From NCBI RefSeq assembly GCF_009914755.1, contig NC_060936.1: 64,000 bases of DNA. One strand, given 5' to 3'. Of the stretch, positions 33,431 to 36,896 are shown piece after piece (the first letter of the stretch is position 1; each line of letters starts with the position of its first letter). A program made the position numbers and the translations under genes. The notes beneath the pieces were generated by a model, which searched no databases, was not told the DNA's origin, and worked only from the letters and a program-made list of their open reading frames with translations. This DNA comes from the human T2T-CHM13v2.0 reference genome, Homo sapiens.

Positions 33431-33841
33431 AAATTACAGATAGGTCAGATTGACAGTTGTTGCAGATTTCTTGAACTATTGTTTACATCCATCATTACAT
33501 TATACTTATTGGACACTCAGCTCTTGTTATTTAATGTATCAATAAATAAACCTACAATTAGTAACTGTATCTCAAAATTGTATCAATAAAGAAACATACA
33601 TTTGGCCGGGCGTGGTGGCTCACGCCTGTAATCCCAGCACTTTGGGAAGCCGAGGCGGGCGGATCACGAGGTCTGGATATCGAGACCAAGGAAGGTTGTT
33701 TTCTTATTCGTAACAGCAGTAAGAGGAAAAGAATTCTGTTTGATGTAAAGATTGGGTAATATCTATCATGCAGTCATTTTTGTTTGCTACAAAGACAAAG
33801 TTTTTAACCAAATGATCTAAAGGAAAAAAAAGTATATTTAC

Positions 33842-33877
33842 CTTGCTGGCACTTAATCGCTTCCGATTTGACCAACG
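33842..33877 (-). pseudogene. MCTP2: Orphan 36-nt coding exon copy, [12 protein letters not shown] (MCTP2 C2A-C2B linker)
   Basis: tctttag|CGTTGGTCAAATCGGAAGCGATTAAGTGCCAGCAAG|gtaaat; peptide matches my recollection of MCTP2 ...[24 protein letters not shown]...; no neighbouring MCTP2 exons seen in the window. Confidence 0.8.
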
Positions 33878-35931
33878 CTAAAGATTTGTGTCCGCGGAAT
33901 GGTGAAAATGGCAAAATAAAACAGAGGAAGATAGAATCATTATCAATGTAATTATATTATGTTAGATGGTCCAGGTTACATTCAGATAATTAATATCCAA
34001 GTTCTGAGGTTATAGAGAAAGCATATTTGAGCAAGAAAATAGAAACAACAACAAAGAGTCACATGTATGTGGTTGTGTTACATCATTTTCTCTAAGTATT
34101 CAGTATGAAAAAGCCATGACATAAAAATACTGTTCAATCTTTAGAAGTACATTTTTAAAAATTATCTTAAAACACCATATTATTCTCTCTAAAAAAGCAG
34201 AAAGGTTTCTTCTGCTTGAAATACTCAGATATTATAAAAATGTTTAAGAAATTCATGACCACTGATAGTTGATGTTTAGGTTTCCATAGTTTTAGATGCT
34301 AGAAAAAAATAATTCCATTTACTTCAAGTAAATCTCAGTATTCAAAACACTAGACAAAATATGAATAATTATTGCATAATTAAGCAAATGTGCTAATGCA
34401 GTATCTAAGGAAAAGGAAAAAAATTTCTAAATAGCAAGAAACTTCACCACTGTTCTCTTCTGATCTCTCCTCTGTCATGCTAAGGCTGCTGAATTTGGTC
34501 TACAAATTCTCTCCAAGCAAAACCCTCTCATCACTCCTGTCACCATTCAGTACTGCAAAGCTCTACTGTGGCTGGTTAACAAGCTAACTGGTTGTTACAA
34601 CTTGGATAAATTTGGGAGGTTACAACTCAATTATAAACCTAATTGAGCAGACCACATTTACTATTTTTCTTAAGAAAAAAATACCTTTAGGTAAATGACC
34701 AATCCACTTTGCCAATATGTCTTCCCAATACATTAGAAACCAGAAAATTAATAATCTTCAGGGGAAATCCACTTACATTGCATTGACCAGCAACTAGAAA
34801 TGTTGGTACAGAAATGACTGAAAAATATTCTTCATTAATTACATGTCCCCCAGTGATATTGGGAGTTCAACATTCAGCCTATGACAGAGTTATAGGTACT
34901 ATTACCTGGATATTAATATCAGGGTTTTGTTTTTTTTTTTGTATTTTCCTGAAATAGTGACAGATATTTTCACCCAAACCAACCACCAAAATTAATTACC
35001 ATCTTTTAGGTACACAGGGCTATTTAGGCCTTTTGACACATAGGAACGCATTTGATATTTTTTAACAATTACACAAGATAAAGCATGTAAATAAATTAAT
35101 GGAAAATGACTATTACTATTCACTTCCTACAATGCTACCAACTACCATATATTGAGTGTCTCTACCCAATTCCAAGCACCATATTTGATAATTTCAATCT
35201 TCACAACCCTATAAAACAGACACTCTTTTTATCCTTGTTTCACATATGAGGAAATTATAGCTTAGAGAGGTTAAATAATTCTTTGAGTTAACCAGACCAC
35301 TGGTGGATCTAGGATTCAGACCCAGGCAGTCTGAGAACAGAGCTCCTAATTTTAGCTACTATTTTTTTCCTGTTTTTTGCCACAAAAAAAGAACACAGAG
35401 TATGTTTGTCAGCCTTGCAGCCAGTGTCTTCCCTTCTGCCTGCACCATTCTCATATACATTTAAGTCCCTGGACACAAGAGTAAATTCATAAACATTTTG
35501 TACATACTGAGATTTTTGTCAGCTTGGTTCTAAAGCAACAAAGGCTACCTCAAAGATGACTGGAAGAAAAAGGGGTAAAAAACTGAGAATTTAAACTGAA
35601 ATCTCTCCATCAGAGTTTAAATTAAAATGGAAATTTATAAACAAATTATCTCACTCAAATAATCTACTGATTTCCAGTCCCAAGTGCTAGTTATTCCCAC
35701 TTAAAATCCCAATATAAAAATCTCTTTAAATATTAACTCAAACTCAATGAAAAGAACAAAGATTCTGATAATCTATTTTACCCCAAGGCTCCCAATATGC
35801 ACTGTTAGCTGAATAACCACACATGGCCCAGAATAAATTATTCCTCAATTAATTTTCTTTGATCAAATATATAAATGGAAAAAAACTACCAATCAGAAGA
35901 GATAAGAGTAGGCAGTTGTCTATATTTCCAT

Positions 35932-35954
35932 TATATATATATATATATATATAT
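35932..35954. repeat. (TA)n tract at the insert junction
   Basis: Direct reading. Confidence 0.9.
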
Positions 35955-36896
35955 TTTCACCAAGGTGAAACCCCGTCTCTACTAAAAATACAATAAAAAA
36001 AAAAAATTAGCTGGGCGCAGTGGCGGGCGCCTGTAGTCCCAGCTACTTGGGAGGCTGAGGCAGGAGAATGGCGTGAACCCGGGAGGCGGAGCTTGCAGTG
36101 AGCTGAGATCACACCACTGCACTCCAGCCTGGGTGACAGAGCAAGACTCCGTCTCAAAAAAAAAAAAAAAAAAGGAAACATACATTTAATAACTGTAAAA
36201 AATTTTGATGTTAGTGATGAATATTTTAATATCTCGTGATTTTATCTTAGACAAGTGAAACTTGGCCTCTCTGTGCTGTTGTTCTCTCATTTGGAAAAAT
36301 GATGAAGATAAGCAAGATATTTACCAATATGACTTAACAAATGGCAGTGACTGTTGTCAGTGGTCAAAAGTATTCACGGTATCTTGTAACTTTATCATGA
36401 CCTAGCTCTGCTATAGATTATCTGTTTTATAACATTTTATATTCTTGAAATATCATGTGAGTTTTAATGCTATTAGTCATTAGTATTTGTTTCTATAACA
36501 CTCTACAGATTTCTTTATTTTACAGTTCTCTTGATTAAACAATGTGTTTGTAAGTATTTCTGGAGAAACATTGTTTACATGAGACCAGGAAAAAAACACT
36601 AAAATTTAAGTTTCTGAACTGACAATTTGGCTAGCCTTTCTGAAAGACATACTTGCAGAAAAGATATATATATGTGCCCTCCTTAGTCAAGCATATTATT
36701 TGCAAAATAACTGAGTAATATACTGTTATATTAATGGAAAATGTCAGCAAGAAAGTCCTTTACCTGAAATTTATGACTCCAAAGTTTTTACACATATATG
36801 AAGTTTAAAATAAACATATTTTCGGTTACTATTTAGGCACAAATAAATCCAGGAAAAGCTTTGACTAGCTAGAGGTTGCCTAAACAGAAAGTTAAC

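What the first reader, a model, noticed from the sequence alone, without database searches (positions are those of the whole stretch)
33591..36187. A young Alu split by a 2.27-kb captured genomic fragment carrying an intact MCTP2 exon (possible exon shuffling)
Seen: the Alu 5' part stops at 33691 and resumes at 35959. One 13-bp TSD (gaaacatacattt) brackets both halves, so this is a single Alu. The 2267 bp between them is mostly unique DNA containing a much older MIR, has no poly(A)/poly(T) end, is flanked by the direct repeat accaagg, and has a (TA)n tract plus a ttcacc-aa-ggtgaa mini-hairpin at the right junction. On the minus strand it holds tttag|36 nt|gtaaat encoding [12 protein letters not shown]. 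Recalled: this peptide lies in the MCTP2 C2A-C2B linker, and I see no flanking MCTP2 exons in the window. Inference: a recent dispersed duplication/templated insertion (break repair, or template switching during Alu retrotransposition) moved a frame-preserving exon with about 2.1 kb upstream and 150 bp downstream intron to a new locus. It could splice into any minus-strand host transcript and may be polymorphic. I have an unverified recollection of MCTP2-IMMP2L pseudo-translocation calls in human SV data; treat that only as a lead.
Basis: partly seen in the sequence, partly recalled or inferred. Interest (0 to 1): 0.85.

Follow-up and report, generated by a model that had tools for sequence, protein, structure and literature searches.

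The report
MCTP2 exon fragment copied into Alu
About a million years ago a 2.27-kb piece of the MCTP2 gene on chromosome 15, including one small coding exon, was copied into the middle of a much older Alu repeat in a gene-poor part of chromosome 12; it is a well-preserved example of a known kind of repair-driven insertion and shows no sign of use.

Summary
One Alu (33604-36173), bracketed by a 13-bp target duplication, is split by about 2267 bp. That stretch is 99.7% identical to chr15:92,106,182-92,108,446 of the same genome, and no third copy exists.

The donor is MCTP2. A nearby exon is identical to PDB 2EP6 "MCTP2 protein". The 36-nt exon's 12-residue peptide is found exactly in 66 of 120 named MCTP2 orthologues.

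- The Alu is not young. It is 4.8% diverged and belongs to the known lineage with a 12-bp deletion (AluYc/"Yd").
- ACCAAGG is best read as a 7-bp target duplication of the second insertion. The left junction has 4 nt of microhomology. The right junction has a 4-nt filler that looks like a fold-back copy. The donor copy ends in a (TA)n tract.
- The insert differs from its donor by only 0.2%, so it entered an old Alu. It was not made by template switching during Alu retrotransposition.

It fits the published class of templated sequence insertions: break-repair synthesis without poly(A) or an L1 endonuclease site. Whether the template was DNA or RNA is unresolved. Exon shuffling is unsupported, because no gene is annotated in the window. 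Polymorphism could not be tested.

The parts
33591..33603 (+). Left copy of the Alu's own 13-bp target-site duplication (GAAACATACATTT)
   Evidence: 2 exact matches in the window, none in any of 100 shuffles.
33604..33691 (+). 5' part of the Alu (left monomer up to the break), a member of the 12-bp-deletion lineage
   Evidence: 5 mismatches in 88 nt against a consensus of 30 genomic copies; the 24-mer holding its two private non-CpG changes is unique in the genome.
33685..33691 (+). Left copy of ACCAAGG, read as the 7-bp target duplication of the second insertion. Its last 4 nt (AAGG, 33688-33691) also match the donor, so they are microhomology.
   Evidence: GAGACCA-N-GGTGAAACCCC occurs uninterrupted in 1317 Alu copies, 32 of them with A at N.
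33692..35954 (-). Copy of MCTP2 intron / 36-nt exon / intron (the MCTP2 sense strand is the window minus strand). Donor: G000 C15:92106182-92108446.
   Evidence: one colinear alignment, 99.69% over 2269 columns (window 33688-35954, which includes the 4-nt AAGG overlap), 5 substitutions and 2 one-base indels. No third copy.
33842..33877 (-). Intact 36-nt MCTP2 cassette exon (12 codons) with AG acceptor (plus-strand CT at 33878-33879) and GTAAAT donor (33836-33841)
   Evidence: exact peptide in 66 of 120 MCTP2 orthologues, at residues 324-335 of the 879-aa chimpanzee protein P0038; skipped exactly in 10 of 120; no difference from the donor in the exon or its splice sites.
35181..35341 (.). Old interspersed repeat inside the insert (MIR-like; the name is recalled)
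   Evidence: dispersed hits at 75-84% identity on C19, C13, C5, C23 and C7.
35932..35954 (+). (TA)11T tract in which donor homology ends. The boundary is uncertain by about 10 nt.
   Evidence: on chr15 the donor end abuts about 520 bp of TA/CA-rich microsatellites (L002 1004-1524).
35955..35958 (+). 4-nt filler TTTC, absent from both donor and Alu. It is the reverse complement of GAAA at 35967-35970, consistent with a fold-back copy.
35959..35965 (+). Right copy of ACCAAGG
35959..36173 (+). 3' part of the Alu, with a 9-nt expansion of the A-rich linker and an 18-nt poly(A) at 36156-36173
   Evidence: 9 mismatches in 188 nt, all at CpG positions.
36175..36187 (+). Right copy of the Alu's 13-bp target-site duplication

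Best explanation
This is a duplicative, interchromosomal templated insertion into a pre-existing, much older Alu.

The Alu is a member of the 12-bp-deletion AluYc/'Yd' lineage. It had sat at chr12 long enough to diverge by 4.8%, and it most likely read ...GAGACCAAGGTGAAACC... at the site.

Roughly 1 Myr ago (0.3-2.8 Myr, inferred) a staggered break or a stalled nascent strand at this point left a 3' end ...ACCAAGG. That end annealed through 4 nt (AAGG) to MCTP2 sequence from chr15 and was extended for about 2.26 kb. The copied stretch is 154 bp of intron, the 36-nt cassette exon and about 2.08 kb of upstream intron. Synthesis fell off in a (TA)n tract at the edge of a microsatellite cluster.

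The other end carries 4 nt (TTTC) that look like a fold-back extension of its own 3' overhang. Joining re-copied 7 bp of target, which gives ACCAAGG on both sides. There is no poly(A) and no L1 endonuclease site.

I favour a DNA template (a microhomology-mediated template switch or alt-EJ type synthesis) only slightly over an RNA template.

Shown: the two copies, the junction anatomy, the gene identity and the age contrast. Inferred: the pre-insertion sequence, the order of steps, the enzymes and the date.

The exon copy is intact but lies in a region with no annotated gene and is most likely inert.
For: - Second copy on C15 at 99.69% identity, colinear, with no third copy.
- The donor lies between C2-domain exons on the chr15 plus strand. 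One of these exons is identical over 34 residues to PDB 2ep6_A 'MCTP2 protein'. The C2A exon finds named MCTP2 orthologues.
- The 12-aa peptide is found exactly in 66 of 120 of those orthologues.
- The chr15 flanks within 1.5 kb hold no Alu, so this was not Alu-Alu conversion.
- The Alu lineage with the uninterrupted motif has 1317 copies, 32 of them with A at the variable base; the reversed-pattern control gave 0.
- Alu divergence is 13 of 269 against 5 of 2267 for the insert. Fisher p = 2.7e-13 overall, 0.003 for non-CpG positions and 0.045 for CpG positions.
- The Alu's two private non-CpG changes occur together nowhere else in the genome.
- The junction letters were read.
- The donor end abuts TA/CA microsatellites.
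- Published precedents: templated sequence insertion classes (PMC5110952, section 9 read); fold-back and distant templated insertions that originate from fragile regions (PMC11724301, abstract read); Pol theta snap-back synthesis (PMC4912351, seen in the search listing and abstract start only).
Against: - The empty site was never seen. No other human haplotype or ape genome was available, so the 7-bp duplication rests on lineage inference.
- Only 32 of 1317 lineage copies (2.4%) carry A at the critical base. The lineage consensus has C there (a CpG), so the pre-insertion A is an assumption.
- The fold-back hairpin is weak: -3.3 kcal/mol, and 9 of 200 shuffles fold as well. A 4-nt filler matches by chance about 1 time in 256.
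- The consensus came from the first 30 listed hits, all on chromosome 1 and all chosen for carrying the motif. It is not a random sample.
- The date uses 4-5 substitutions, so the Poisson interval is wide. It also ignores polymorphism that may have segregated at the donor.
- Nothing separates a DNA template from an RNA template.
Confidence: 0.8

Rival explanations
1. RNA-templated version. Unspliced MCTP2 pre-mRNA (or the excised intron-exon-intron of the exon-skipped isoform) was reverse-transcribed at the break, by L1 ORF2p acting in trans or by another reverse transcriptase. Priming was by the 4-nt AAGG/CCUU match instead of poly(A). This would be target-primed reverse transcription at a site not cut by the L1 endonuclease.
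For: - The window plus strand of the insert is antisense to MCTP2. A cDNA extended from the left 3' end ...AAGG would have exactly this orientation, although it is a 1-in-2 expectation by chance.
- The donor lies in a transcribed gene.
- A 7-bp target duplication is the geometry of target-primed reverse transcription.
- PMC5110952 (section 9) holds that such insertions derive from RNA, and that class 2 resembles endonuclease-independent retrotransposition using non-L1 RNA.
Against: - There is no poly(A), and no poly(A) signal is used.
- Neither inferred nick site resembles the 5'-TTTT/A-3' preference quoted in PMC5110952.
- The exon is unspliced on both sides.
- The donor end at a DNA-fragile TA/CA microsatellite cluster and the fold-back filler are equally or better explained by DNA polymerases (abstract of PMC11724301).
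Confidence: 0.35
2. No target duplication. The Alu lost one or more bases at a double-strand break. The chr15 copy joined at the left through 1 nt of homology. At the right, 9 nt of filler (TTTCACCAA) were added, copied partly from the adjacent GGTGAAA (inverted) and partly from the new left junction.
For: - The lineage consensus has C, not A, in front of GGTG, and 97.6% of copies lack A there.
- TTTCACC is an exact inverted copy of the adjacent 7 nt.
Against: It needs two separate small templated copies, or a 5-nt chance match of about 1 in 1000. The duplication reading needs only a pre-existing C-to-A change, which is seen in 32 other copies.
Confidence: 0.12
3. Template switching during the original Alu retrotransposition. 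The L1 reverse transcriptase jumped from Alu RNA to another template and back, so Alu and insert arrived together.
For: One 13-bp target duplication brackets the whole structure. The insert sits inside the Alu with little or no loss of Alu sequence.
Against: - The Alu is 4.8% diverged from its lineage consensus. The insert is 0.22% from its donor, or 0.11% per lineage (p = 2.7e-13).
- 10 of the 13 Alu changes are at CpG positions. Only 1 of 8 donor CpGs is changed in the insert.
- MCTP2 sense RNA would have been copied in the opposite orientation relative to the Alu.
Confidence: 0.02
4. Functional exon shuffling. The copied exon is spliced into a minus-strand transcript at chr12.
For: The exon and both splice sites are identical to the functional MCTP2 exon. 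At 36 nt it preserves the reading frame.
Against: - The hub table (RefSeq annotation of T2T-CHM13) lists no gene in the 64-kb window and none within 100 kb upstream. The nearest downstream gene is a plus-strand lncRNA.
- The exon is itself skipped in 10 of 120 predicted MCTP2 isoforms, which suggests weak definition.
- No expression data were available here.
Confidence: 0.03
5. Assembly artefact: a chimeric join in T2T-CHM13.
For: None specific.
Against: The copy differs from chr15 at 5 substitutions and 2 indels. It also has biologically structured junctions, with a duplication, microhomology and filler, inside a single Alu that has matching target duplications.
Confidence: 0.01

Closest known systems
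Templated sequence insertion polymorphisms, class 2 (Onozawa & Aplan; PMC5110952, sections 8 and 9 read)
   Same: A stretch templated from a distant chromosome (intronic or exonic, non-repeat) inserted at an apparently arbitrary site. It has no poly(A), no cryptic poly(A) signal use and no 5'-TTTT/A-3' site. The junctions show microhomology and a few extra nucleotides, as expected for repair of a break.
   Different: Class 2 is defined as lacking a target duplication, and here 7 bp are repeated. Polymorphism is untested. The primary catalogue (PMC4419790) is not held, so I could not check whether this locus is listed.
Templated sequence insertion polymorphisms, class 1 (L1 ORF2p acting in trans on non-L1 RNA)
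   Same: A recipient-site duplication of at least 5 bp. The orientation is compatible with a cDNA of the donor gene's RNA.
   Different: There is no poly(A) tract, no poly(A) signal 10-30 nt upstream of the end, and no L1 endonuclease target motif.
Microhomology-mediated template switching (FoSTeS/MMBIR) and alt-EJ with fold-back or snap-back synthesis (PMC11724301 abstract; PMC4912351 listing)
   Same: - 3-4 nt microhomologies at the switch points.
- A short inverted copy of sequence next to the break.
- A distant template that ends at a fragile, structure-forming repeat.
- A small duplication at the return point.
   Different: Those mechanisms were defined in yeast, cancer cells, in vitro systems or pathogenic rearrangements. 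No enzyme can be assigned to a fixed germline event from sequence alone. Naming FoSTeS/MMBIR as a framework is from recall.
AluYc / 'Yd' 12-bp-deletion Alu lineage (PMC5858127 passage, citing Xing et al. 2003, which was not seen)
   Same: Once the insert and one ACCAAGG copy are removed, the host Alu matches the consensus of 30 genomic copies that carry the deletion motif. It differs only at 13 of 269 positions, at the A-rich linker and at the poly(A) tail.
   Different: It has A instead of C at the deletion junction (32 of 1317 copies do). Membership presumes that ACCAAGG is a duplication.
Small interchromosomal segmental duplication (duplicative transposition)
   Same: Two copies of more than 1 kb at more than 90% identity on different chromosomes, with the donor retained. 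These thresholds are recalled.
   Different: It is far shorter than typical segmental duplications, and the donor ends are not in Alu elements.

Membership tests
Templated sequence insertion (any class) | The inserted sequence is a copy of a distant genomic locus that is itself retained | tested here: met
   C15:92106182-92108446 at 99.69% identity, with both copies present in one haploid-derived assembly.
Templated sequence insertion, class 2 | No target-site duplication | tested here: not met
   ACCAAGG lies at both junctions. It is read as a duplication because 1317 Alu copies carry the uninterrupted motif. The empty site was not seen.
Templated sequence insertion, class 2 | No poly(A) and no poly(A) signal use, with microhomology, non-templated bases or microdeletion at the junctions | tested here: met
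   4-nt AAGG overlap on the left, 4-nt TTTC filler on the right, no A or T run at either end.
Templated sequence insertion, class 1 (L1 ORF2p in trans) | Target duplication of at least 5 bp | tested here: met
   7 bp, subject to the empty-site caveat.
Templated sequence insertion, class 1 (L1 ORF2p in trans) | Poly(A) tail of 10-40 nt downstream of a poly(A) signal | tested here: not met
   In the MCTP2 sense the copy ends ...CAACCTTCCTT and joins Alu sequence directly.
Templated sequence insertion, class 1 (L1 ORF2p in trans) | Insertion at a 5'-TTTT/A-3' site | tested here: not met
   The inferred nicks fall at CAAGG|TGAAA on the plus strand and TTGGT|CTCGA on the minus strand.
Templated sequence insertion polymorphism | Present in some humans and absent in others | not testable with these tools
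   Only one human assembly is held. Scans of genome contigs and viral contigs for the locus-specific 24-mer found nothing.
MCTP2 coding exon | The encoded peptide occurs in MCTP2 proteins at a fixed place, and the donor lies within the MCTP2 gene | tested here: met
   The peptide is found exactly in 66 of 120 orthologues, between the C2A and C2B exons. A neighbouring exon is identical to 2ep6_A.
AluYc/'Yd' lineage | [quoted passage not shown] | tested here: inconclusive
   Each half aligns to the deletion-lineage consensus up to and from ACCAAGG. Because the insert sits exactly at the deletion point, the pre-insertion state is inferred.
Chimeric retrotransposition product (template switch during Alu insertion) | Alu and insert are the same age | tested here: not met
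   13 of 269 against 5 of 2267 (two lineages), p = 2.7e-13.
Exon shuffling / exonisation | The copied exon is spliced into a host transcript | not testable with these tools
   No expression data were available. The hub annotation lists no gene in the window.
L1 3'-transduction or orphan transduction | An L1 source next to the donor, a poly(A) tail and an L1-type target site | tested here: not met
   No poly(A). The donor flanks share nothing with the recipient. An L1 next to the donor was not specifically sought.

The most novel reading that the evidence does not exclude
The fragment was reverse-transcribed from unspliced MCTP2 pre-mRNA. It may have been the intron-exon-intron piece released when this cassette exon is skipped. 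Priming would have been by only 4 nt of homology at a staggered break not made by the L1 endonuclease. This would give a target duplication without poly(A), a form intermediate between the two published classes of templated insertion. It would be evidence that RNA-templated break repair has added exon-bearing DNA to the human germline within the last one or two million years. If the insertion is also polymorphic, carriers would hold a spare, splice-competent MCTP2 exon at 12q21.
Probability: 0.25. Interest if true: 0.5.

Novelty: new member of a known kind. Interest (0 to 1): 0.33.

Why it matters
The event is a well-preserved footprint of how non-repeat DNA moves between human chromosomes. 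Both junctions, the donor and the host Alu can be read base by base, and the host Alu's greater age sets the order of events. It extends the published two-class scheme for templated insertions with a case that has a target duplication but none of the L1 hallmarks.

There is also a practical side. A 2.27-kb, 99.7% paralogue of an MCTP2 exon and its introns on chr12 can create false chr12-chr15 translocation or MCTP2 variant calls in short-read data. This applies especially if the insertion is polymorphic or absent from another reference.

It is unlikely to matter functionally, because nothing shows the exon copy is transcribed.

Tried and rejected
- PF08372 (PRT_C) search of the genome, meant to mark MCTP genes: 29 candidates, no match, and the controls were silent. 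Uninformative.
- PDB search with the presumed C2B exon (L040): no match. The C2A exon matched many C2 proteins but 2ep6 only weakly. The third exon gave the identity.
It was replaced by a C2 family search and three 0.2-kb fetches.
- The primary catalogue of templated insertions (PMC4419790) is not held, so I cannot say whether this locus is listed there. Supplements were not consulted for any paper.
- Literature searches found no description of this insertion:
  - 'templated sequence insertion' / MCTP2
  - MCTP2 + interchromosomal. The ape-genome paper mentions MCTP2 only for orangutan 15q expansions.
  - MCTP2 + IMMP2L + translocation: 3 papers, judged unrelated from title and abstract start only; none was opened.
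  - MCTP2 + TRHDE + insertion. The one candidate listed both only as expression hits.
- Scans for the locus-specific 24-mer in genome contigs and viral contigs, hoping for human contamination that showed an empty or filled allele: 0 hits each.
- Rejected on the evidence:
  - Alu-Alu gene conversion: no Alu within 1.5 kb of the donor.
  - Reintegration of a circular DNA: the insert is a single colinear alignment.
  - Chr15 as the recipient: the exon is conserved in MCTP2 proteins as far as marsupials.
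Full report
**What is in the sequence.**
- An Alu starts at 33604, directly after GAAACATACATTT (33591-33603).
- The same 13-mer follows the Alu's poly(A) (36156-36173, then one G) at 36175-36187. It occurs only at these two places in the window, and none of 100 shuffles gave any match.
- The Alu left monomer runs to ...GAGACCAAGG (33691). Alu sequence resumes at ACCAAGGTGAAACCCC (35959 onward).
- In between lie about 2267 bp of AT-rich, mostly unique DNA with no A or T run at either end.
- That DNA ends on the right in (TA)11T (35932-35954), followed by TTTC (35955-35958).

**The second copy.** A search of the window's own genome with 33692-35958 found exactly one other full-length match, C15:92106182-92108446 on the opposite strand.
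- The other 14 hits were short. They were either (TA)n or 75-84% matches to insert positions 1490-1650, which behave like an old interspersed repeat (MIR-like; the name is recalled).
- BLAST and a global alignment give 99.69% identity over 2269 columns, corresponding to window 33688-35954.
- There are 5 substitutions (34385, 34701, 34903, 35655, 35945) and 2 one-base indels, one in a T run at 34930 and one in the (TA)n at 35947.
- Nothing else is shared between the two loci within 1.5 kb on either side. In particular there is no Alu next to the donor. The event was therefore copy-and-paste, not Alu-Alu exchange.

**The donor is MCTP2 and the exon is real.**
- A C2-domain (PF00168) search of the genome found three exon-sized hits on the chr15 plus strand, at 92102418-576, 92122525-650 and 92148053-172.
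- The 36-nt segment lies at about 92108.3 kb, between the first two hits.
- The third exon is identical over 34 consecutive residues to PDB 2ep6 chain A, "MCTP2 protein".
- The first exon retrieves 380 proteins at E <= 1e-10. Of the 120 listed, nearly all are named multiple C2 and transmembrane domain-containing protein 2.
- The peptide encoded on the window minus strand by 33877-33842 occurs exactly in 66 of those 120. In the 879-aa chimpanzee protein P0038 it is at residues 324-335, after the C2A exon and before the C2B exon.
- Ten of the 120 are predicted isoforms that skip exactly these 12 residues. The remaining 44 have 1-3 changes or could not be placed.
- It is therefore a conserved cassette exon, and the chr12 copy keeps it and both splice sites unchanged.
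- A PF08372 search gave nothing and is uninformative.

**The host Alu is old and belongs to a known deletion lineage.**
- The motif GAGACCA-N-GGTGAAACCCC, meaning the two Alu halves with a single ACCAAGG, occurs 1317 times in the genome. The reversed-pattern control gave 0.
- N is mostly C, and A in 32 copies.
- I built a consensus of 30 such copies. They were the first 30 listed, all on chromosome 1.
- Against it the split Alu differs at 13 of 269 positions (4.8%). Ten are at CpG positions and three are not. There is also a 9-nt expansion of the A-rich linker.
- The 30 copies themselves range from 2.2% to 9.7%.
- The 24-mer that contains two of its three non-CpG changes is unique in the genome (1 exact hit among 328 within one mismatch). 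These are therefore private, post-insertion mutations.

**Order of events.**
- The insert differs from its donor at 5 of 2267 positions, summed over two lineages. The Alu differs from its consensus at 13 of 269 on one lineage.
- Fisher's test gives p = 2.7e-13 overall, 0.003 for non-CpG positions and 0.045 for CpG positions.
- Only one of the donor's 8 CpGs is changed in the copy.
- The fragment therefore entered an Alu that was already old. That alternative also predicts the opposite orientation, since the MCTP2 sense strand is antisense to the Alu.
- Scaling the pairwise divergence of 0.18-0.22% (Poisson interval 0.05-0.51%) to the established human-chimpanzee divergence of about 1.2% over 6-7 Myr (general knowledge) dates the insertion to roughly 1 Myr, range 0.3-2.8 Myr. 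This is inference and has not been checked against apes.

**Junction forensics.** The simplest pre-insertion sequence is ...GAGACCAAGGTGAAACC...
- ACCAAGG (33685-33691 and 35959-35965) is then a 7-bp target duplication.
- Donor homology begins 4 nt inside the left copy: AAGG at 33688-33691, where chr15 reads ...TAAAGGAAGG.... This is what is expected if the 3' end ...AAGG annealed to the template and primed synthesis.
- Synthesis ran 2.26 kb and ended in (TA)n. On chr15 this tract is the edge of about 520 bp of TA/CA microsatellites.
- The exact end point is uncertain by about 10 nt, because the last two differences lie in the repeat.
- The 4-nt filler TTTC is the reverse complement of GAAA (35967-35970). 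The minus-strand 3' overhang ...ACCTTGGT can pair GGT with ACC and be extended by GAAA, which produces exactly the observed TTTCACC-AA-GGTGAAA.
- The hairpin is thermodynamically weak: -3.3 kcal/mol, and 9 of 200 shuffles fold as well. This step is plausible, not proven.
- Neither inferred nick resembles the L1 endonuclease preference.

**Comparison with the known.**
- Onozawa and Aplan (PMC5110952, sections 8 and 9 read) describe templated sequence insertions in two classes. Class 1 has a target duplication of at least 5 bp, a poly(A) and a 5'-TTTT/A-3' site. Class 2 has none of these but shows microhomology, microdeletion and added bases, as in break repair.
- The present case has the class 2 junctions and lacks poly(A) and the L1 site, yet it shows a 7-bp duplication. 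It is an intermediate member of a known kind.
- Fold-back inverted copies and distant templated insertions from fragile regions are documented in yeast (PMC11724301, abstract read).
- Snap-back synthesis by Pol theta appears in PMC4912351 (search listing and abstract start only).
- DNA and RNA templates cannot be separated here. The orientation fits a cDNA (1 in 2 by chance). The donor end at a structure-prone DNA repeat and the fold-back fit DNA synthesis. I put DNA slightly ahead.

**What remains open.**
- No empty allele, other human haplotype or ape sequence was available, so the duplication, the date and any polymorphism are untested.
- No expression data were available. The hub annotation shows no gene in the window, so exon shuffling has no support.
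- Four literature searches found no description of this insertion. The primary catalogue (PMC4419790) is not held, and no supplements were consulted.

**Verdict.** This is a real, well-preserved templated insertion that most likely arose on the human lineage. It carries an intact MCTP2 cassette exon into an old AluYc-lineage element. It is of mechanistic interest, of some practical relevance for variant calling, and probably inert.

Noticed in passing
window 33535-33603 and 36188-36200: The Alu's own target region is a local tandem duplication of about 44 bp. TGTATCAATAAATAAACCTACAATT (33535-33559) and TGTATCAATAAAGAAACATACATTT (33579-33603) are 88% alike (D7). The similarity continues past the Alu (D5: 33541-33569 against 36169-36197, 79%). 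The Alu landed in the second unit.
   Followed up: no
window 33842-33877 (minus strand); proteins P0004, P0007, P0034, P0040, P0048, P0050, P0054, P0069, P0078, P0079: The 36-nt MCTP2 exon behaves as a cassette. Ten of 120 database MCTP2 proteins, mostly predicted 'isoform X2' of 864-869 aa, lack exactly these 12 residues. Sixty-six carry them unchanged, including marsupial proteins.
   Followed up: partly
L002 1004-1524 (G000 C15:92105685-92106205): About 520 bp of interleaved TA / CA / TATC-type microsatellites lie in the MCTP2 intron directly beside the donor segment. This is a likely structure-forming, fragile spot.
   Followed up: partly
window 35994-36002: The A-rich linker between the Alu monomers is expanded by 9 nt relative to the lineage consensus.
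   Followed up: no
G000 C5:95357451-95437745 (minus strand): Four C2-domain exon hits cluster on chr5. This is presumably the paralogue MCTP1 (name recalled, not tested).
   Followed up: no
genome-wide: Thirty-two Alu copies share the C-to-A transversion at the CpG that spans the 12-bp deletion junction. Whether they form a sub-lineage or are independent hits was not examined.
   Followed up: no
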